DNA of 59,820 bases from Clostridia bacterium (GTDB lineage Bacteria > Bacillota > Clostridia > RGIG8785), in NCBI GenBank assembly GCA_045655245.1, contig JAZOOX010000045.1, positions 1 through 59,820 on the forward strand. The letters are read 5' to 3'. Both the position numbers and the translations under genes were made by a program. Shown piece after piece: positions 4,067-50,708 of this stretch (position 1 is its first letter; each line of letters starts with the position of its first letter). The notes beneath the pieces were generated by a model, which saw only the letters and a list, made by a program, of their open reading frames with translations, was not told the DNA's origin and did no database searches.

Positions 4067-6589
4067 ATGGAACGTTTGCTTATTATTGATGGGAACAGCA
4101 TTGCTAACCGCGCATTTTACGGCATAAGAACCCTAAGCAACCATCAGGGCGTGCCGACCAATGCGATATACGGCTTTTTGAATATCATGCTAAAAACGGC
4201 AGAGGAACGAACCCCTGACTATCTTTGTGTTGCCTTCGATTTGCGCGCCCCTACTTTCAGACATAAAGCATACGATCTTTACAAGGCGCAGCGGAAAAAA
4301 ATGCCCGAAGAACTGGCGGTACAATTGCCGTTATTACAAGAGGTTCTTGATGCAATGAATATTCCTTGTCTGACCGCTGAAGGGTTTGAAGCGGATGATA
4401 TTATTGGAACGGTATCAGCACTTTGCAATCAGAAAGGAATTGCCTGCGAAATTTTGACCGGCGACAAAGACGATTTACAATTAATCGAAGACGGAACAAA
4501 TGTTTTGTTGACCACGACGCGAATGGGCAACACCGAAACCGAATTGTATACTGCTGAAAAAGTGCTGGAGCGGTACGGGTTAACTCCCGCGCAGATTATC
4601 GACCTAAAAGGGTTGATGGGTGATTCTTCCGACAACATCCCCGGTGTCCGCGGGGTGGGCGAAAAAACGGCGCTGTCGCTATTACAGCGCTACGGTTCTG
4701 TCGAGGCCTTGTACGACGGTTTGGAAAACGATACTGCGATCAAGGGGGCACTACGGGAAAAGTTAATGCAATCCCGTGATGATGCATTTTTAAGCAAACA
4801 ACTTGCGACCATTGTGCGAGATGTTCCGATTGTGTTTTCCTTTGAGAATTTCCGCAGAACAACGTCATACAAAGAGGCGTTGTATCCTTTACTGAAAGAG
4901 CTGGAACTTTTTAAACTGATCGAACGTTTGCAAGTTGAGGGTCCGTCCGAATGTCGTGAAACCTTTGAAATCAATTGGATTTCGGGCGATAAAACTGACT
5001 TGTGTGATAATGCCGTCGTTTCTCTTGCAATGGACGAAAAAGGTGCTGTGGTCCTTACAACTGACGGTGCCCGTTTTTCTTACTTCGAGACACTTCCTCA
5101 GGCATTGCTCGAAAACGCTAAGATCAAAAAGAAAACCCACTGTTCTTATCTGATATATCAACTGTATCCGGGTTTGGAAAATGTTGTATTTGATACTGAA
5201 CTGGCAGCGTATTTATTAGATGTCCTATCGGAGAAGTATCCCCTTTCGCTATTGGCAGAAATCTACTTGAACAAGACCATCTCCGCAGAAGAAGAAAAAC
5301 TGCGATTGGCAGAAGAATGTGCAGCAGTATATTACCTTTCATCTGTTCTTGAAGAGCATCTGCACAGAGAAGAGATGTTTCAGCTTTTTTCTGAGGTAGA
5401 GGTCCCCCTTGCAAAAGTTCTGGCGGATATGCACCGCATCGGTATTGGTGTAGAAAGAACGGTTTTGGAAGAACAAAGCAAAGCTTTAGGCGCTTTATTG
5501 GAGAAACAAGCGGCGGCTATTTATGAAATGGCAGGAGAGACCTTTAATATCAATTCTCCCAAACAGTTAGGGAATATCCTTTTTGAAAAATTGGAACTGC
5601 CCCACAAAAAGAAAACGAAAAGTGGATATTCAACCAATGCGGACGTCTTGGAAAAACTGCGGTATGCCCATCCGATTGTTGATGCTGTTTTAAATTATCG
5701 TCAAATGATGAAGTTGAAGTCGACCTATACCGATGGTCTGTTGCCTTACATTGAAGAGGATCAGCGGATTCATACCCATTTTAATCAAACGGTTACGGCA
5801 ACGGGACGGTTAAGCAGCACTGAACCGAATCTGCAAAATATTCCCGTCCGTACTGAAGAGGCGAAAATGATACGAAAGGCGTTTTGTGCCCGCGAAGGGT
5901 ATCATTTTCTGTCAGCTGACTATTCCCAAATTGAATTGCGAATTTTGGCACACATTTCCGATGATAGAGAGATGATTGCTGCATTTAACGAGGGAATCGA
6001 CATTCACACCAAGACTGCCGCATTGATTTTCGGCGTTTCTGTAGCAGACGTTACGTCTATGATGCGCAGCAGTGCAAAGGCGATCAATTTTGGTATTCTC
6101 TACGGAATGGGGGATTTTTCCCTGGGGAATGACTTGGGAATTACCCGCCGTCAGGCTGCGGAATATATTGAAAATTACCTGAATACTTATCCTAAGGTTC
6201 GCGACTACCTGGAACAAGTGATTACGGAAGCGCGGGAAAACGGATATGTTAAAACCCTTTTTGGCAGAAGACGATCCATGCCCGAACTTTCTGCATCGAA
6301 CTTTATCGTACGCTCTTTTGGCGAACGGGTAGCCAAAAACGCTCCCATTCAGGGCACCGCCGCTGATATTATCAAAATGGCAATGGTCCGTGTGTATCAG
6401 CGGTTAACGGACGAGAATTTAAAATCCCGATTAATTTTACAAGTTCATGATGAGCTGATTTTGGAAGTTGCTGATGATGAGGAAGAATATGTAACGGCTT
6501 TATTAAAACAAGAGATGGAGGGAGTCGTTTCCCTTTCTGTACCGTTGCCCGTCTCCGTTTCAAAAGCAAAAGATTGGTATCATCTGTAA
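4067..6589 (+). CDS. polA: DNA polymerase I
   Basis: 840 aa. N-terminal 5' nuclease domain (LIIDGNSIANRAFY, GDKDDLQL, GDSSDNIPGVRGVGEKTA). C-terminal family A polymerase motifs (DYSQIELRILAH, RSSAKAINFGILYGM, QVHDELILE). Confidence 0.96.
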   Translation: MERLLIIDGNSIANRAFYGIRTLSNHQGVPTNAIYGFLNIMLKTAEERTPDYLCVAFDLRAPTFRHKAYDLYKAQRKKMPEELAVQLPLLQEVLDAMNIPCLTAEGFEADDIIGTVSALCNQKGIACEILTGDKDDLQLIEDGTNVLLTTTRMGNTETELYTAEKVLERYGLTPAQIIDLKGLMGDSSDNIPGVRGVGEKTALSLLQRYGSVEALYDGLENDTAIKGALREKLMQSRDDAFLSKQLATIVRDVPIVFSFENFRRTTSYKEALYPLLKELELFKLIERLQVEGPSECRETFEINWISGDKTDLCDNAVVSLAMDEKGAVVLTTDGARFSYFETLPQALLENAKIKKKTHCSYLIYQLYPGLENVVFDTELAAYLLDVLSEKYPLSLLAEIYLNKTISAEEEKLRLAEECAAVYYLSSVLEEHLHREEMFQLFSEVEVPLAKVLADMHRIGIGVERTVLEEQSKALGALLEKQAAAIYEMAGETFNINSPKQLGNILFEKLELPHKKKTKSGYSTNADVLEKLRYAHPIVDAVLNYRQMMKLKSTYTDGLLPYIEEDQRIHTHFNQTVTATGRLSSTEPNLQNIPVRTEEAKMIRKAFCAREGYHFLSADYSQIELRILAHISDDREMIAAFNEGIDIHTKTAALIFGVSVADVTSMMRSSAKAINFGILYGMGDFSLGNDLGITRRQAAEYIENYLNTYPKVRDYLEQVITEARENGYVKTLFGRRRSMPELSASNFIVRSFGERVAKNAPIQGTAADIIKMAMVRVYQRLTDENLKSRLILQVHDELILEVADDEEEYVTALLKQEMEGVVSLSVPLPVSVSKAKDWYHL

Positions 6590-9126: not shown

Positions 9127-10554
9127 ATGAACGAAAGAACAGTTCGTCTGGTCCCGCCTGAGGTTATGGACGAGGAGAAGTGTGCAATTGCTGAAGTTTT
9201 GCAATACAATGCAGAATGCAACCAGCCACTTCGCGCTTTTGTCCAGACTTTTGGCTGCCAGTTGAATGAAAATGACAGCGAAAAGATTTGCGGTATGTTG
9301 GAACAAATGGGATTTTCTTTTACCGACAGTACTGAAACCGCCGACCTGATTTTACTGAACACTTGTGCCATTCGCGAAAATGCCCACGATAAGGTTTTTG
9401 GCATTATCGGCTCCTTAAAGCATCAAAAAGAAAAGAATCCGTCATTACTGATCGGGCTTTGCGGATGCATGGCGCAGGAACCGCAAGTGGTGGAAGAATT
9501 AAAACGCAAATATCGTCAGGTGGATTTTGTATTCGGTACGCATACCCTGCATCGTTTCCCAAGTGTTTTGCTGGATGCGTTAAAACAACAACGGTTTGTA
9601 TGTAACGTCGTTGATATAGACGGAGAAATTGCCGAGGGGCTTCCTGTTAAACGAGAAGATTCCTTTAAAGCATCCGTTTCCATTATGTATGGGTGCAACA
9701 ACTTTTGCTCGTATTGCATCGTTCCCTATGTTCGCGGTCGCGAGCGCAGTCGCGCTTCTGAGATGATACTCGGAGAAATTCGCGATTTAATCAAAGGCGG
9801 TTACTGCGAAATTATGTTGCTGGGGCAAAACGTAAACTCATACGGTCTGGATCTTGAAAACGAGATTAATTTCCCTACCTTATTGGAACGAATCAACGAA
9901 ATTGAAGGGGATTTCCGTGTCCGTTTTATGACCTCTCATCCCAAAGATATCAGCAAACATCTGATCGACGTGATTGCCGATTGTGATAAAGTTTGTAATC
10001 AGTTGCATATTCCCGTACAGTCGGGGAGTGATACCGTTTTAAAGGCGATGAATCGCCGTTACACGCGGGAGTCTTATCTTGATATTATCCGATACGCAAA
10101 AGAACGGATCCCCGGTCTGGTTTTAACCAGTGATATCATCGTCGGTTTTCCGAACGAGACCGAGGAGGATTTTGAACAAACGCTACAATTAATTCGAGAA
10201 GTTGAATACGATACTTTATTCACGTTTTTGTTTTCTCCTCGCGTTGGTACCCCTGCCGAAAAAATGCCTGATCCATTCTCTAAAGAAGAGAAGCAGCGGC
10301 GCTTTGAACGGTTGTTAGAAGTGCAGAACGAAATCTCGCGCACCAAGAACGAGAACTATCGCAATAAAGTTGTGACAGTTCTTATAGAGGGGCAATCAAA
10401 AACAGACAAGAGCCGACTTTCGGGCAGAACAGAAGGCGGAAAAATCGTTAATTTTATCGGAGACGAAACCTTAATTGGTTCATTCTGCAAAGTGCAGATA
10501 ACGGATATTCAAACCTGGTCTTTGACCGGAAAAATAGTAAAGGAGAATGAATAA
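9127..10554 (+). CDS. miaB: tRNA-i6A37 methylthiotransferase
   Basis: 475 aa. UPF0004 N-domain cysteines (FGCQLN, NTCAIRE, GCMAQ), radical SAM CNNFCSYC, and a C-terminal TRAM domain. Confidence 0.92.
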   Translation: MNERTVRLVPPEVMDEEKCAIAEVLQYNAECNQPLRAFVQTFGCQLNENDSEKICGMLEQMGFSFTDSTETADLILLNTCAIRENAHDKVFGIIGSLKHQKEKNPSLLIGLCGCMAQEPQVVEELKRKYRQVDFVFGTHTLHRFPSVLLDALKQQRFVCNVVDIDGEIAEGLPVKREDSFKASVSIMYGCNNFCSYCIVPYVRGRERSRASEMILGEIRDLIKGGYCEIMLLGQNVNSYGLDLENEINFPTLLERINEIEGDFRVRFMTSHPKDISKHLIDVIADCDKVCNQLHIPVQSGSDTVLKAMNRRYTRESYLDIIRYAKERIPGLVLTSDIIVGFPNETEEDFEQTLQLIREVEYDTLFTFLFSPRVGTPAEKMPDPFSKEEKQRRFERLLEVQNEISRTKNENYRNKVVTVLIEGQSKTDKSRLSGRTEGGKIVNFIGDETLIGSFCKVQITDIQTWSLTGKIVKENE

Positions 10555-18734: not shown

Positions 18735-19080
18735 GGGGGCGTAATTGGTTTCGACAGGGATCATGAAGCATGAAAAGCGGGTAGTTGCGTTGGACAACTT
18801 TAAAACCGACACCTTAAATTAGACGCTAACAAAAACTTAGCTGTAGCTGCGTAATGCGGCTTGCACCTCCGCGTGGTAACCGCTCCGGCGGAAAGTGCAT
18901 CATCTAAGCGGTGAACGTGCGTGCGCAAAGCTTTGAGCGCACCATGAACAATGAAGCTACTGATACGACTCGTTTGTTTGTGTATGGGTCTTTGATGGAA
19001 TTCTAAAACACATTCTGCACCCGGAGAAGTTTGTGTGAATTGGTTTTTGGACAGGGGTTCAACTCCCCTCGCCTCCACCA
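18735..19080 (+). ncRNA. ssrA: tmRNA (SsrA)
   Basis: The 5' GGGGGCG pairs with the 3' CGCCUCC-A-CCA and includes a G3:U pair. A tRNA-like T-arm GGGGTTCAACTCCCC is present. The internal tag frame GAC GCT AAC AAA AAC TTA GCT GTA GCT GCG TAA (18822..18854) ends in LAVAA-stop. The gene starts directly after the smpB stop codon. Confidence 0.93.
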
Positions 19081-47186: not shown

Positions 47187-47215
47187 TTGACAAATGCCAA
47201 TTCTTTTCGTATAAT
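47187..47215 (+). promoter_or_regulatory. SigmaA-type promoter of the tRNA Asp-Thr-Lys cluster
   Basis: TTGACA (47187..47192), a 17 nt spacer, then TATAAT (47210..47215). Confidence 0.7.
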
Positions 47216-47419: not shown

Positions 47420-47495
47420 GCACCATTAGCTCAGTTGGTAGAGCACCTGACTCTTAATCAGGGTGTCCACGGTTCGAGCCCGTGATGGTGTACCA
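47420..47495 (+). tRNA. tRNA-Lys (anticodon CTT)
   Basis: Acceptor GCACCAT/ATGGTGT, anticodon loop CTCTTAA, T-loop GGTTCGAGCC, encoded CCA. Confidence 0.92.
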
Positions 47496-47497
47496 AA
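47469..47497 (+). repeat. Direct repeat copy 1 (29 bp, the 3' end of tRNA-Lys); att-like
   Basis: acggttcgagcccgtgatggtgtaccaaa is identical to 50243..50271. Confidence 0.9.
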
Positions 47498-47527
47498 AAT
47501 CCCCGTTCTTACGAACGGGGATTTTTA
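47496..47527 (+). terminator. Terminator after tRNA-Lys
   Basis: tccccgttc-ttac-gaacgggga hairpin followed by TTTTT. Confidence 0.8.
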
Positions 47528-47732
47528 CTTATTGCCTCTTCACTATTCTTTAAAATGTCTTTTAGATTTTGGAAAGTGATAGGTAATAGCAAATAAGGAA
47601 GTGGCATAGTACATACTCACCTGAATGAGTTGTATTTGATAAACAAGACCTTACACATGTTGAAAGTGCAGGAACTGGCGACCTTCTTGACTTTTGTCGA
47701 CATATTGTGTATGATAAAACCGAAGGGAGAGG

Positions 47733-48611
47733 ATGACTATGAAAGCAAAGAAGAAAACGCTGTTTTGTTTTTTTGGACTTTTGTTATTTTTAACTTATTC
47801 TTTTGCTTTAGAGGCATTTGCTGAAAACGCCAACCGAATTGTGTACCACGCGAACTCGCCTGACTCTCAAATCGTTATCCCGAAAGGCTATACGCTTTTC
47901 ACAAGAAGTATTGATGAGAATTCCGAAGAATTAAGGCGGATGAATATAGCAAAGGATGACCTTGTAACTTATTTAAATGCATATGGTTCTGAATTTTTGG
48001 CAGTTTCGCCCGATGGAAACATGGAAGTTATGCTAAAACTCAAAAAAACAGGTTTTGGCTCAAATAATTTAAATTCTCAAAGCATAGATGTGGTTTCTTC
48101 ATTCGCCGAGGGACTGCAAAAGGGGTTTGGCGCAAAAACTTATGAGTTGGTTGAAAGAGATGATATAACATGGGTTAAATTGACTTATTTGCAACCCGTT
48201 TCCGATTCCAGCACCCCTGCGGATATTATTAGATATACAACTGTAGCGAATGGTTGGGATGTCTATCTTTGGGGAAGTTCTTACAACGGGAAACTTACGC
48301 AACAGAACTCAATAGAACTTCAAAATATGTTGGATAGCTTTTCTTTTACAAAGAAGACTACATCGTCATACACGAAACCGAAAACCTCTACTTCTCACTC
48401 CATTTCTAAGAACAAAACAGATACATCGGGCACACTATTTGTTCTTGTGCTTTTGTTGATCACATTTTCCCTTTGTATTACAATATTGATAATAGCCAAA
48501 CGGAATCTAGCGAAAAAACATTCCATTTACAAGATGAAAAAGTGCCCTTGTTGTAAACAAAGTGTTCCAAAAGAAAGCGACTTCTGTCATCATTGCGGTG
48601 AAAAAGTATAA
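47733..48611 (+). CDS. Secreted/membrane-anchored protein with a cytoplasmic C-terminal zinc ribbon
   Basis: Signal peptide (KKKTLFCFFGLLLFLTYSFALEAFA), an extracytoplasmic domain of about 190 aa, a Ser/Thr/Lys linker, and a TM helix. The tail is CPCCKQSVPKESDFCHHCGEKV. A TTGACT-17-TATGAT promoter candidate and RBS gggagagg lie upstream. Confidence 0.7.
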   Translation: MTMKAKKKTLFCFFGLLLFLTYSFALEAFAENANRIVYHANSPDSQIVIPKGYTLFTRSIDENSEELRRMNIAKDDLVTYLNAYGSEFLAVSPDGNMEVMLKLKKTGFGSNNLNSQSIDVVSSFAEGLQKGFGAKTYELVERDDITWVKLTYLQPVSDSSTPADIIRYTTVANGWDVYLWGSSYNGKLTQQNSIELQNMLDSFSFTKKTTSSYTKPKTSTSHSISKNKTDTSGTLFVLVLLLITFSLCITILIIAKRNLAKKHSIYKMKKCPCCKQSVPKESDFCHHCGEKV

Positions 48612-48624
48612 GAGGGGTGTTGTT

Positions 48625-49116
48625 ATGAAAGTTCTGATTTATTGCTTGTGGTTCTTTTGTCTTGTTTGTATTCAGGTAATCTTCAAAAATATTGGCGTAC
48701 TTTTAGGCGCTCTTCCCACAGCTCTTCTCTATCTGTTGGTGTGGTTTTGTGCAGATAAAACATGGTATGCATGGAAACAACACACAGTTTTAAAAGAAGC
48801 ACAAAAGGCTGGAAAAACTCCTTTTGAATTTATAGCAAATGATGTTCCTGAAAGCGTTATCGAATACTGCAATTCCGTTCGCGGAAATGTAGCAGAAGTG
48901 AAAGACTATTTAAAAGCTTGCGTGAAAAATAAGAGTATTACTGATTTAGAATCCCGAATTCTTTTTGAGGAGTTTAAAACGCCACGACTTCTCTCGGCTG
49001 AAAACCACGGAAAACCCATCCTCTTTTGTCGAGAATGTGGCACAAAACTTTTGGGAAATAGTTCTTTCTGCCAAAAATGTGGAACAAAGATTATTACACC
49101 GGAGGAAATAAAATGA
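48625..49116 (+). CDS. Two-TM membrane protein with a C-terminal zinc ribbon
   Basis: The ATG at 48625 follows RBS gaggggtg. Two N-terminal hydrophobic helices and a C-terminal CRECGTKLLGNSSFCQKCGTKI. Confidence 0.65.
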   Translation: MKVLIYCLWFFCLVCIQVIFKNIGVLLGALPTALLYLLVWFCADKTWYAWKQHTVLKEAQKAGKTPFEFIANDVPESVIEYCNSVRGNVAEVKDYLKACVKNKSITDLESRILFEEFKTPRLLSAENHGKPILFCRECGTKLLGNSSFCQKCGTKIITPEEIK

Positions 49117-50198
49117 AGTGTACAAAATGTGATAGCATTTTACCTGAAGGGAGCAAGTTTTGCCAATATTGTGGACAACAAATAGTTTCTCCTTCGGTAA
49201 AAATCGAAGAACTTGAAGATCCTATAATTCGTGCTTTGATAAAGAGATCGGAAAGTTTGAATGCTGATGAACGAAAAGAAATTTTTGAGAAGCTGAAAGA
49301 ATCTGCGGAAAGAAGAAATATTCTTTATGAAAGACAAAAACCAGATGAAGAAAATTACGGATTTTGCATAGAAAACCCCATTATTACTTCAACGGTTTTT
49401 GATAGTTCGAGTTATCTTTCTCGTTTGAGAACCGCTGACAAAGAGCCTCTTTTTTGGGCAAGAACAGGAGCGTACTATGAAGTCGAAGTACATGGCGTAA
49501 TTGTAAATGGGGTTGATTGTTATACTCTTTATCTTTATGGGGAAGAGTATGCAGTATTATATCTTTGTCCTTATGGACATGTCGCAAAAAAAGCACCAAA
49601 AGGATTTGTTTTGGAAGATGAAGATAATCGCGAATTCGGCGGAAGCATAGAAAAAGAATGTGAGGCTAAAAATCTTTCTCAGGAGCAAATTCTGTTGATG
49701 CATAAACACGAACACGAAAACGAGCAATTGGCTCAAAATGTTGTGCCAGAAAAAGGAACATCGGGAGATTCTAATACCAAAAGCCAACTAGGAATATCAC
49801 CGAAACGCTTTTGTAAGATGTGTGGTGGAGAAATAGATGAAAATAAAAAGTGCTCACAATGCGGAAAGCAGTATTTTAAAGGTTTAGCCGACAGTATGGT
49901 TTGGATACTGATTTTGTCTTTGTTTTCTTTAATTCTATTAACCATCAATATCGTGAATGAACTCAAAATCAATGAACTGGCATCAGAATTGCAGATGTAT
50001 CGTGAAAACGTTGTATTTGTCGTTGAAGGATATTCAAGTGCTTTTGGCAAAAGACCACCAATATATCATACAGATTCTAACTGCCGTAAGTTGAAAGAGG
50101 CTTCGAACCATGAAATCAGATCCAAAGATGAGGTTTTATACTCTGATTCTGCATGGGATTCCAAACCAAACAAATGCGTCTGGTGCTTTACAGATTAG
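49113..50198 (+). CDS. Protein with two zinc ribbons, one TM helix and a C-terminal H/C-rich motif
   Basis: The ATG at 49113 follows RBS ggaggaaat and makes an ATGA overlap with the upstream gene. N-terminal CTKCDSILPEGSKFCQYCG, an internal CKMCGGEIDENKKCSQCG, and a TM helix (MVWILILSLFSLILLTINIV). The C-terminus reads IYHTDSNCRKL...KCVWC. Confidence 0.65.
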   Translation: MKCTKCDSILPEGSKFCQYCGQQIVSPSVKIEELEDPIIRALIKRSESLNADERKEIFEKLKESAERRNILYERQKPDEENYGFCIENPIITSTVFDSSSYLSRLRTADKEPLFWARTGAYYEVEVHGVIVNGVDCYTLYLYGEEYAVLYLCPYGHVAKKAPKGFVLEDEDNREFGGSIEKECEAKNLSQEQILLMHKHEHENEQLAQNVVPEKGTSGDSNTKSQLGISPKRFCKMCGGEIDENKKCSQCGKQYFKGLADSMVWILILSLFSLILLTINIVNELKINELASELQMYRENVVFVVEGYSSAFGKRPPIYHTDSNCRKLKEASNHEIRSKDEVLYSDSAWDSKPNKCVWCFTD

Positions 50199-50242
50199 AA
50201 TAAGTATAATAAGGAACTCCAATACTCTCGGCTTTTAAAATT

Positions 50243-50271
50243 ACGGTTCGAGCCCGTGATGGTGTACCAAA
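50243..50271 (+). repeat. Direct repeat copy 2 (29 bp fragment of the tRNA-Lys 3' end); att-like
   Basis: Identical to 47469..47497. No 5' part of a tRNA precedes it. Confidence 0.9.
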
Positions 50272-50306
50272 CAAGCACTTACGAAAGTAGGTGCTTGTTT
50301 TCTTTT
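50271..50306 (+). terminator. Terminator hairpin after the displaced tRNA-Lys 3' fragment
   Basis: acaagcacttac-gaaa-gtaggtgcttgt hairpin followed by TTTTCTTTTT. Confidence 0.7.
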
Positions 50307-50368
50307 TCAAAAAAGCCAGGCGAACCCTGATCAAAGGCGGAACTGGTTTTGGAAAAATTTGGTGGATT

Positions 50369-50433
50369 TGTCGAATTATGTCGAAATACATCGAAGATTT
50401 ATGCTTGAAAATGTCGAATGATTGCGATATAAT
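50369..50433 (+). promoter_or_regulatory. Cluster of Spo0A-box-like heptamers overlapping a sigmaA-type promoter
   Basis: TGTCGAA at 50369, 50379 and 50412, and CATCGAA at 50389. The promoter is TTGAAA (50405..50410), a 17 nt spacer, then TATAAT (50428..50433). Confidence 0.6.
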
Positions 50434-50489
50434 AAAAACCGTAAGAGAGCTCTCCTCAAACAACGCGTTAAAATCCTAAAAAAGTAAGG

Positions 50490-50708
50490 ATGACTGCTAT
50501 GATCTGCACCTACTCGTTAGTTGAGGAAAAGAAAAACGGAAGAATATCTTATGGCATCAGAGCCACAAGTGGGGACGGAAAAGAGGTTGCCGCTTTTACC
50601 GATGTGTTTTCGGAACGGGAGCAAGCAGAAGAGTTGGTTCGTCGTTGTAATGAAGGTGAACTATGCTTCTGCCATCTTCAAGATGTGGTTTTGGACACCA
50701 TAGGATGA
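50490..50708 (+). CDS. Small hypothetical protein (72 aa, or 69 aa from the ATG at 50499)
   Basis: RBS aaggatg. Sequence: MICTYSLVEEKKNGRISYGIRA...CNEGELCFCHLQDVVLD. No family is assigned with confidence. Confidence 0.55.
   Translation: MTAMICTYSLVEEKKNGRISYGIRATSGDGKEVAAFTDVFSEREQAEELVRRCNEGELCFCHLQDVVLDTIG

What the first reader, a model, noticed from the sequence alone, without database searches (positions are those of the whole stretch)
47469..50271. A 29-bp direct repeat of the tRNA-Lys 3' end brackets a 2.8 kb integrase-less islet
- **Seen:** acggttcgagcccgtgatggtgtaccaaa occurs at 47469..47497, as the genuine 3' end of tRNA-Lys(CTT).
  - It occurs again at 50243..50271, where no 5' tRNA half precedes it.
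  - Each copy is followed by a different terminator hairpin.
- **Established knowledge:** this is the classic attL/attR signature of a tyrosine-integrase element inserted in a tRNA 3' end. The element supplies a replacement 3' end and the original one is displaced.
- **Seen:** the intervening 2.77 kb encodes only three ORFs of unknown function. It has no integrase, excisionase or replication gene. By eye it looks more A/T-rich than the flanks.
- **Inference:** it is either a decayed remnant of a larger island, or a minimal cargo module mobilised in trans by an integrase encoded elsewhere.
Basis: partly seen in the sequence, partly recalled or inferred. Interest (0 to 1): 0.7.

Follow-up and report, generated by a model that had tools for sequence, protein, structure and literature searches.

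The report
Integrase-less islet in tRNA-Lys gene
A 2.7 kb piece of foreign, A/T-rich DNA carrying three membrane zinc-ribbon genes sits at the end of a lysine tRNA gene, bracketed by the repeat that site-specific integration leaves behind but with no integration enzyme of its own; this is an ordinary kind of decayed mobile element, though the same cargo turns up in similar enzyme-less islets elsewhere.

Summary
The 29-nt 3' end of tRNA-Lys(CTT) (47469-47497) recurs exactly at 50243-50271, where there is no tRNA. No shuffle gave even one match.

The 2745 bp between the copies is the most compositionally deviant stretch of the contig: GC 0.368 against 0.447, z = -4.7. It holds one promoter and three intact genes for membrane zinc-ribbon proteins. 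It has no recombinase, excisionase, replication or transfer gene.

In two relatives (PNP 71-74% identical) the same tRNA 3' end abuts the right-hand hairpin, the Spo0A-box promoter, and the DUF6514 and PNP genes. The right flank is therefore ancestral and the islet is an insertion. A true empty site could not be shown, because both relatives' contigs begin at the tRNA 3' end.

Best reading: a CIME-like remnant of a tyrosine-recombinase element, that is, a new member of a known kind.

One unexpected result: ORF3 homologues with a small zinc-ribbon partner occur as low-GC islets without a recombinase in other genomes.
- One is bracketed by an 86-nt duplication of the spo0A 3' end.
- One is bracketed by an ~80-nt repeat next to tRNA-Glu.
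- Others sit as cargo beside tyrosine or serine recombinases in predicted phage contigs.

The cargo's function is unknown.

The parts
47187..47215 (+). Promoter of the tRNA Asp-Thr-Lys operon (TTGACA-17-TATAAT)
   Evidence: 12/12 consensus match. The same promoter sequence is conserved after the GDPD gene in relatives L094 and L095.
47420..47495 (+). Intact tRNA-Lys(CTT), last gene of the tRNA operon. Its 3' part lies within the repeat.
   Evidence: ARAGORN; Rfam RF00005, 67.5 bits.
47469..47497 (+). Left copy of the 29-nt direct repeat (attL core): T-arm, acceptor 3' strand, CCA and 2 nt
   Evidence: Exact repeat; 0 of 100 shuffles gave a match.
47495..47526 (+). Hairpin supplied by the islet that now follows the tRNA (AAAAATCCCCGTTC-TTAC-GAACGGGGATTTTT)
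   Evidence: 14-nt arms, 100% complementary (I14). Absent from the relatives' tRNA-Lys downstream sequence.
47498..50242 (+). The islet proper: 2745 bp of low-GC foreign DNA between the repeats
   Evidence: GC 0.368 against 0.447, z = -4.7. Its tetranucleotide distance exceeds that of all 208 comparison windows. No DNA match in phage or plasmid records.
47687..47715 (+). Promoter-like site of the cargo operon (TTGACT-17-TATGAT)
   Evidence: 10/12 consensus match, 18 nt upstream of the ORF1 start region. Consensus match only.
47733..48611 (+). ORF1 (290-292 aa). By my reading of the sequence: signal peptide, ~200-aa external domain, TM helix, C-terminal zinc ribbon.
   Evidence: Sub-threshold DZR match at residues 267-287, E 2.9e-4. 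25% identical over 212 aa to the first cassette gene of L218, E 5e-12. Not related to L082_296 outside the zinc ribbon.
48625..49116 (+). ORF2 (163 aa): N-terminal hydrophobic (probably TM) segments by my reading, C-terminal zinc ribbon
   Evidence: PF13240, E 9.4e-7. 38-42% identical over 55-57 aa to L081_144 and L082_146.
49113..50198 (+). ORF3 (361 aa): zinc ribbon, conserved ~110-aa central domain, second zinc ribbon (CxxCG...CxxCGKQYF), TM helix, helical (probably coiled-coil) segment, C-terminal YH..C...CxxC motif
   Evidence: Full-length homologues at 27-32% identity, E 1e-24 to 1e-31. The family has 324 clusters at E<=1e-30. No solved-structure or fold match.
50243..50271 (+). Right copy of the 29-nt repeat (attR core): the displaced original tRNA 3' end, with no tRNA 5' part
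50269..50300 (+). Ancestral terminator of the tRNA operon
   Evidence: 14-pair stem followed by a T-run. A homologous hairpin follows the tRNA-Lys 3' end in L088 and L096.
50360..50708 (+). Ancestral right flank: TGTCGAA (Spo0A-box-like) repeats, TTGAAA-17-TATAAT promoter and the DUF6514 gene (50490-50708)
   Evidence: Conserved in L088 and L096.

Best explanation
**What it is.** The islet is what remains of an integrative element, a prophage or other tyrosine-recombinase island. That element inserted by site-specific recombination into the T-loop to 3'-end region of tRNA-Lys(CTT), the last gene of the Asp-Thr-Lys operon.

**How it formed.**
- Recombination between the element's attP and the tRNA rebuilt the tRNA 3' end at attL. 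The rebuilt end is now followed by an element-borne hairpin.
- The original 3' end, with the ancestral terminator and the Spo0A-box/DUF6514/PNP flank, was pushed 2.77 kb downstream to attR.
- The integrase and the rest of the element were later lost. Both att cores survive, together with one self-contained cargo operon.

**What it carries.** The operon has its own promoter and three membrane-anchored zinc-ribbon proteins. In ICE/IME terminology the locus is a CIME-like element. It cannot move by itself. It could be excised only if a cognate integrase arrived, for example on an element that integrates at the same tRNA.

**What the cargo does.** It is most likely a 'moron', a gene set kept because it benefits the host. 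My guess is an envelope-level phage-exclusion or defence function. That step is inference only.

**Shown:** the repeat, the intact tRNA, foreign composition, the gene content, the ancestral right flank, and homologous cargo in other mobile contexts.

**Inferred:** the tyrosine-recombinase mechanism, a former larger element, and the cargo function.
For: - **Repeat and tRNA:** exact 29-nt repeat, non-random. It spans T-stem to CCA plus 2 nt, the commonest tDNA recombination site. The tRNA is intact at attL and there is no tRNA at attR.
- **Foreign composition:** the islet is the compositional extreme of the contig and its limits coincide with the repeats.
- **Ancestral right flank:** in L088 and L096 the tRNA 3' end, preceded by C as in the true T-stem, is joined directly to the homologous hairpin, promoter, DUF6514 and PNP genes. 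The left flank (GDPD, promoter, tRNA-Asp) is conserved in L094 and L095.
- **No mobility genes:**. No arm-type repeats occur in the islet arms. A real phage attP in L217 has at least 6 GCGGACA repeats.
- **Homologous cargo rides on larger elements:**
  - In L217 an ORF3-like gene lies between ImmA and a tyrosine integrase. The adjacent attP holds the 3' part of a tRNA-Lys(UUU)-like sequence.
  - In L218 and L082 the cassette lies near large serine recombinases.
- **Independent decay-like cases:** L085 and L081 carry ORF3 homologues with a small zinc-ribbon partner in low-GC, repeat-bracketed islets without recombinases.
- **Definition:** the CIME definition matches (PMC5704250 and PMC6323972).
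Against: - No empty site was observed. Both relatives' contigs start at the tRNA 3' end, so they could equally be attR junctions.
- No full-length parent element or cognate integrase was found in the window (motif screen only). None was found in viral contigs either.
- The islet is very tidy: 235 bp, an intact operon, then 44 bp. Two other loci hold similarly compact islets with related cargo. Three independent decays to nearly the same minimal unit is somewhat surprising. It fits a cassette that moves as such at least as well.
- The cargo function is entirely inferred. PADLOC gave no hit and the AlphaFold model was poor (pLDDT 57).
Confidence: 0.6

Rival explanations
1. The islet is a functional, non-autonomous integrative cassette, not a decay product. 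It would be a minimal unit (promoter, cargo operon, att) that an integrase encoded elsewhere in the genome or on an incoming element inserts and excises in trans. This would be analogous to integron cassettes, or to mobile insertion cassettes of IS elements.
For: - Three loci hold compact, repeat-bracketed, recombinase-free low-GC islets of about 2.0-3.0 kb. Each carries an ORF3 homologue plus zinc-ribbon membrane partner(s): the window, L085 at the spo0A 3' end and L081.
- In the window both 29-nt copies are identical and all three genes are intact.
- Contigs of two relatives, from two different assemblers, begin at exactly the same base, one nt upstream of the repeat. A population polymorphic for what lies upstream of the core would produce that.
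Against: - The three islets use different targets and repeat lengths (29, 86 and about 80 nt). Their non-coding arms share no similarity. A common trans-acting recombinase is therefore unlikely.
- No arm-type binding repeats occur in the window's arms.
- The window holds no obvious tyrosine recombinase (a weak screen).
- The contig starts can also be explained by k-mer breaks at a tRNA 3' end shared by many gut Clostridia (at least 120 matches, and all of the 80 loci examined lie in tRNA-Lys genes).
Confidence: 0.22
2. The repeat comes from a local duplication or a degenerate second tRNA-Lys gene, not from site-specific integration. The three genes would then be native.
For: tRNA genes are often duplicated, and tRNA-Asp occurs twice in this window.
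Against: - Nothing tRNA-like lies upstream of the second copy.
- Identity ends sharply on both sides.
- The interval is compositionally foreign.
- Relatives join the tRNA 3' end directly to the right flank.
Confidence: 0.03
3. Assembly chimera. The low-GC segment belongs to another organism in the metagenome and was threaded into this contig through the shared 29-nt tRNA-Lys sequence.
For: - The window is a whole metagenomic contig (longest contig 59820).
- The tRNA-Lys(CTT) 3' end is identical in many gut Clostridia.
- The islet GC differs from the flanks.
Against: - It needs two joins through a 29-nt repeat. The donor would itself have to carry the 29-mer, without a tRNA 5' half, at the right end.
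- Modern assemblers use k well above 29.
- An analogous repeat-bracketed islet (L085) was recovered in 24 contigs, from at least three different samples.
Confidence: 0.04

Closest known systems
CIMEs (cis-mobilizable elements), e.g. those at the fda 3' end in Streptococcus thermophilus; 235 are listed in ICEberg 2.0
   Same: Defined as elements that have lost their integration and transfer genes but keep attL and attR (PMC5704250 and PMC6323972). The window has intact att repeats at the 3' end of the target gene, no recombinase and only cargo.
   Different: - No related ICE/IME parent is known.
- The cargo's relatives sit on phage-like contigs rather than on conjugative elements.
- Descent by deletion and cis-mobilisation by accretion are untested.
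- At 2.7 kb with a single operon, the element is very small.
tRNA-gene genomic islands and prophages integrated by tyrosine recombinases (T-loop to 3'-end sublocation)
   Same: The direct repeat covers T-stem, T-loop, acceptor 3' strand and CCA. The tRNA is rebuilt. The target is the last tRNA of an operon. The insert has foreign composition.
   Different: The defining integrase next to the att site is missing, and no phage or transfer genes are present.
Degenerate tycheposon remnants in Prochlorococcus islands
   Same: Cargo material flanked by partial tRNA copies that tRNA-targeting integrative elements leave behind; remnants without intact integrases are described (bioRxiv 10.1101/2020.12.28.424599).
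   Different: Different phylum and different element family. Here there is a single clean islet, not an array, and no fragmentary integrase.
Prophage 'morons' next to int/attP (model here: L217)
   Same: In L217 an ORF3-like membrane zinc-ribbon gene lies between the ImmA/cI lysogeny switch and a tyrosine integrase. Its attP contains a tRNA-Lys-like 3' part.
   Different: - L217 targets a tRNA-Lys(UUU)-like sequence, not this CTT tRNA.
- Its gene has only the C-terminal half of ORF3.
- Its orientation relative to the tRNA differs.

Membership tests
CIME (cis-mobilizable element) | [quoted passage not shown] | tested here: met
   29/29-nt exact repeat at 47469-47497 and 50243-50271; the left copy is the tRNA-Lys 3' end.
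CIME (cis-mobilizable element) | No integration/excision genes and no conjugation or mobilisation genes inside | tested here: met
   Three ORFs fill the interval. Pfam, NCBIfam, PHROGs and PADLOC give only zinc-ribbon hits.
CIME (cis-mobilizable element) | Derived from an ICE/IME by internal deletion | tested here: inconclusive
   No parent element was found by DNA or protein search in phage, plasmid or viral collections. Cargo homologues occur on recombinase-bearing elements.
CIME (cis-mobilizable element) | Can be excised or transferred in cis after accretion with an element that encodes a cognate integrase | not testable with these tools
   Needs experiments, or population data with tandem arrays.
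tRNA-integrated genomic island / prophage (tyrosine recombinase) | Direct repeat that reconstitutes the tRNA 3' part (T-loop or anticodon loop to 3' end) | tested here: met
   compared.
tRNA-integrated genomic island / prophage (tyrosine recombinase) | Integrase gene adjacent to an att site | tested here: not met
   No integrase in the islet. A motif screen of the window found no obvious candidate.
tRNA-integrated genomic island / prophage (tyrosine recombinase) | Atypical composition relative to the host | tested here: met
   GC 0.368 against 0.447, z = -4.7; tetranucleotide distance exceeds that of all 208 comparison windows; low GC3.
tRNA-integrated genomic island / prophage (tyrosine recombinase) | Empty site (tRNA followed directly by the right flank) in related genomes | tested here: inconclusive
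   L088 and L096 show the tRNA 3' end joined to the right flank, but both contigs start at that point. No same-species sequence exists in the collections searched.
Known anti-phage defence systems (PADLOC) | Proteins match models of a described system | tested here: not met
   Only a 12.6-bit Cas10 noise hit.

The most novel reading that the evidence does not exclude
The ORF3-family zinc-ribbon membrane cassette may define a recurrent class of minimal, recombinase-free, repeat-bracketed islets of about 2-3 kb and about 37-39% GC, whatever the host GC.
- These islets land at the 3' ends of conserved genes: tRNA-Lys here, spo0A in L085, and beside tRNA-Glu in L081.
- Either they are genuine cargo-only cassettes moved in trans by diverse integrases, or the cargo is so beneficial that it is repeatedly the last survivor of decaying prophages. 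A new envelope-level phage-exclusion system would be one such benefit.
Probability: 0.15. Interest if true: 0.6.

Novelty: new member of a known kind. Interest (0 to 1): 0.35.

Why it matters
On its own this is a textbook footprint of site-specific integration with the integrase gone. It helps genome annotation by marking horizontally acquired DNA and an integration hot spot at tRNA-Lys(CTT).

Its wider value lies in the cargo. ORF3 belongs to a large, uncharacterised protein family: 324 clusters at E<=1e-30 and 1697 at E<=1e-10. Members occur on predicted phage contigs and recombinase-associated loci of gut Clostridia. In at least two other genomes a member survives as a small recombinase-free islet.

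That pattern marks the family as a candidate host-beneficial module that is worth testing. The three att-bracketed islets also offer natural material for asking how cargo outlives its vehicle.

Tried and rejected
- **Empty site in close relatives.**
  - Exact-protein look-ups of the GDPD and PNP flanking genes found nothing, because the gene calls use different start codons.
  - The scan of representative genomes with PNP gave at best 66% identity and no synteny at tRNA-Lys.
  - Homologue searches showed that the species is unique in the collection.
  - The nearest relatives' contigs break in the tRNA cluster. More distant ones lack the tRNA adjacency.
- **Junction and core searches.**
  - The exact attR-junction 29-mer had no hit in metagenome contigs.
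  - The tRNA 3'-end 27-mer and 20-mer had no hit in viral contigs.
  - The P and P' arm junctions had no hit in viral contigs.
- **tRNA 25-mer in metagenomes.** All of the 80 loci examined lie in tRNA-Lys(CTT) genes or in their 3' part at a contig edge; L126 alone got no ARAGORN call despite tRNA-like upstream sequence. None has a second partial copy of 13 nt or more. By eye, none has an integrase just downstream. This gives no evidence that the tRNA is a hot spot elsewhere.
- **Phage and plasmid records.** No DNA match to the islet and no protein match to the ORF3 homologue P0003.
- **Cargo function.** Pfam, NCBIfam, PHROGs and PADLOC gave only zinc ribbons. A PDB profile search gave nothing. 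The AlphaFold model was poor at pLDDT 57. Foldseek gave no hit at E<=0.001 (best E 0.34) and TM-scores below 0.3.
- **RNA elements.** Rfam found nothing above the gathering score in the islet.
- **Arm-type repeats or arms shared between islets.** None found.
- **Rejected readings.** A tRNA pseudogene or local duplication. ORF3 as a novel recombinase: it has a TM helix, the targets and repeats vary, and it rides on elements that have their own recombinases.
Full report
**1. The observation**

The 29-mer ACGGTTCGAGCCCGTGATGGTGTACCAAA occurs exactly twice in the 59,820-nt window, at 47469-47497 and 50243-50271, both on the + strand. This holds even when three mismatches are allowed, and none of 100 shuffles produced a match.
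- The first copy is the T-arm, the 3' acceptor strand and CCA plus two bases of tRNA-Lys(CTT) at 47420-47495. This is the last gene of an Asp-Thr-Lys cluster (ARAGORN; Rfam tRNA 67.5 bits).
- At the second copy neither program sees a tRNA. The 49 nt before it resemble the tRNA 5' part no more than shuffled sequence does.
- Identity ends abruptly on both sides.
- Each copy is followed by a different hairpin, at 47495-47526 and 50269-50300.

**2. What lies between the copies**

The 2745 bp at 47498-50242 contain a promoter-like site at 47687-47715 and three tightly packed ORFs on the + strand.
- ORF1 (47733/47739-48611) has a signal peptide, an external domain, a TM helix and a C-terminal zinc ribbon.
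- ORF2 (48625-49116) has TM helices and a zinc ribbon.
- ORF3 (49113-50198) has two zinc ribbons, a conserved central domain, a TM helix, a coiled coil and a Cys-rich C-terminus.

Signal peptide, TM helices and coiled coil are my reading of the sequences and of the AlphaFold model's long helix; no topology predictor was run.

Only 235 bp on the left and 44 bp on the right are non-coding. Pfam, NCBIfam, PHROGs and PADLOC report nothing beyond zinc ribbons. There is no recombinase, excisionase, replication or transfer gene, and no room for a pseudogene of one.

The interval is compositionally foreign.
- GC is 0.368 against 0.447 for the rest (z = -4.7). That is lower than any of 1033 equal-sized windows.
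- Its tetranucleotide distance exceeds that of all 208 comparison windows.
- GC3 is 0.29-0.35 against 0.42-0.51 in neighbouring genes.

**3. Which flank is ancestral**

The window is a whole metagenomic contig. Its species is otherwise absent from a collection of 5.8 billion proteins: the best PNP relatives are 74% and 71% identical, and the best GDPD relatives 73% and 67%.

Right flank:
- Contigs L096 (ENA) and L088 (Logan) both begin with CACGGTTCGAGCCCGTGATGGTGTACCAAA.
- This is followed directly by the homologue of the 50269-50300 hairpin, the TGTCGAA-repeat promoter, and the DUF6514 and PNP genes. L088 continues through dapB, dapA and asd.
- The base before the repeat is C, as in the true T-stem. 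It is not T as at the window's right copy.

Left flank:
- GDPD, the tRNA-operon promoter and tRNA-Asp are likewise conserved in L094 and L095.

What is missing is a contig that runs through the whole tRNA cluster. Both relatives' contigs start at the tRNA 3' end, so a strict empty site is not demonstrated.

The two contigs come from two different assemblers yet start at the same base. Either something variable lies upstream of the core in those populations, or both assemblies broke on k-mers of a tRNA 3' end shared by many gut Clostridia (at least 120 matches, and all of the 80 loci examined lie in tRNA-Lys(CTT) genes). I treat this only as a hint.

**4. Mechanism**

A repeat running from the T-stem to just past CCA, with the tRNA rebuilt and the original end displaced, is the usual product of tyrosine-recombinase integration into tDNA. 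Most recombination sites comprise the T-stem, T-loop, acceptor 3' half and CCA (bioRxiv 10.1101/2020.11.02.365908).

[quoted passage not shown] Comparable degenerate remnants flanked by partial tRNAs are described for tycheposons (bioRxiv 10.1101/2020.12.28.424599).

Evidence bearing on whether the islet can still move:
- The islet arms show no arm-type repeats. A real attP found during this work (L217) has at least six GCGGACA repeats around a tRNA-like core.
- No parent element or cognate integrase was found. There was no DNA hit in phage or plasmid records. There was no exact hit for the core or arm junctions in viral contigs. A crude motif screen of the window gave no candidate.

**5. The cargo elsewhere**

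ORF3 belongs to a sizeable uncharacterised family: 324 clusters at E<=1e-30 and 1697 at E<=1e-10 among 1.84 billion representatives (alignment A1). Homologues, usually preceded by one or two small zinc-ribbon membrane proteins, occur in several contexts.

| Locus | Context |
|---|---|
| L217 (predicted viral contig) | An ORF3-like gene sits between ImmA/cI and a tyrosine integrase. The adjacent attP contains the 3' two-thirds of a tRNA-Lys(UUU)-like sequence. |
| L218 (predicted viral contig) | ORF1-, ORF2- and ORF3-like genes in the same order as in the window. They lie among helicase-nuclease and Schlafen/AlbA genes, next to a large serine recombinase. |
| L082-L084 | Cassette followed by Trypsin_2 and LRR genes. 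In L082 it lies 2.3 kb from a serine recombinase. |
| L085-L087 | Cassette in a 2.96-kb recombinase-free islet. An 86-nt, 97% identical duplication of the spo0A 3' end brackets it, and the displaced fragment keeps its own terminator. |
| L081 | Two-gene version just downstream of tRNA-Glu(CTC), bracketed by an ~80-nt repeat. |

In every case the cassette has lower GC than its host: 0.38-0.42 against 0.45-0.535. The non-coding arms of the islets are unrelated to one another.

**6. Interpretation**

The simplest account is that this cargo is a 'moron' carried by diverse temperate elements of Clostridia. After integration the vehicles decay and the cargo is retained.

The window is one such remnant, at tRNA-Lys(CTT). 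I give this 0.6.

The alternative is that these compact islets move as cargo-only cassettes through integrases acting in trans. Three similarly minimal islets make this attractive. Their different targets, repeat lengths and arms, and the absence of arm sites, weaken it. I give it 0.22.

Local duplication or a tRNA pseudogene (0.03) and assembly chimerism (0.04) are disfavoured.

**7. Function of the cargo**

This remains unknown.
- The AlphaFold model is poor at mean pLDDT 57.
- Foldseek and PDB profile searches give nothing significant.
- PADLOC has no match.

A role in phage exclusion or defence at the envelope is suggested only by the membrane topology and by the location beside int/attP and among defence-type neighbours in phage-like contigs. 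That is inference.

**8. Verdict**

The locus is a new member of a known kind: a CIME-like, integrase-less islet in a tRNA gene. Interest is modest at 0.35. What lifts it above routine is the recurrence of the same uncharacterised cargo in other recombinase-free, repeat-bracketed islets.

Noticed in passing
L085:6246-9436 (same layout in L086 and L087): A 2.96-kb low-GC islet (0.384 against 0.535) with no recombinase carries an ORF3 homologue preceded by a large zinc-ribbon membrane protein. An 86-nt, 97% identical duplication of the spo0A 3' end brackets it (6246-6331 and 9293-9378). The displaced fragment keeps its own terminator. An element-borne hairpin recurs at both islet ends (6396-6427 and 9229-9260).
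   Followed up: partly
L081:1-2324: A two-gene version of the cassette (359-1782) lies just downstream of a tRNA-Glu(CTC) 3' end and its terminator. It is bracketed by an ~80-nt imperfect direct repeat (142-219 and 2246-2324; exact blocks of 44 and 24 nt). The nature of the repeat (att site or dispersed repeat) is unresolved.
   Followed up: partly
L217:7593-10260: In a predicted viral contig an ORF3-like membrane zinc-ribbon gene sits between ImmA/cI and a tyrosine integrase. Next comes an attP-like region with at least 6 GCGGACA repeats around an antisense 3' portion of a tRNA-Lys(UUU)-like sequence.
   Followed up: partly
L088:1-30 and L096:1-30: Contigs of two different relatives, from two assemblers (Logan and a k141 assembly), both begin at exactly CACGG..., one base upstream of the window's repeat boundary. 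Either what precedes the core is polymorphic in those populations, or both assemblies broke on shared tRNA k-mers.
   Followed up: partly
window:50360-50433: A cluster of TGTCGAA / CATCGAA (Spo0A-box-like) repeats overlaps a TTGAAA-17-TATAAT promoter upstream of the DUF6514 gene. It is conserved in L088 and L096, which suggests that this small gene is regulated by Spo0A.
   Followed up: partly
window:47135-47186 compared with L094:10741-10985 and L095:4954-5196: Both relatives carry an extra ~80-aa Cys-rich gene (L095: PF04071, zf-like) between GDPD and the tRNA-operon promoter. The window lacks it and keeps only the gene's last few bases, so it was probably deleted in this lineage.
   Followed up: no
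window:18735-21000: The tmRNA gene (18735-19080) is followed by a stretch of lower GC (about 0.40-0.41) and high GC skew. No repeat of the tmRNA 3' end longer than 11 nt was found in the window.
   Followed up: partly
L127 (downstream of tRNA-Lys and tRNA-Glu): Three tandem paralogous ~215-aa secreted proteins end in a GYECWSCxYCGKWTGN motif. They lie directly after a tRNA-Lys(CTT)-tRNA-Glu pair in a human-gut contig.
   Followed up: no
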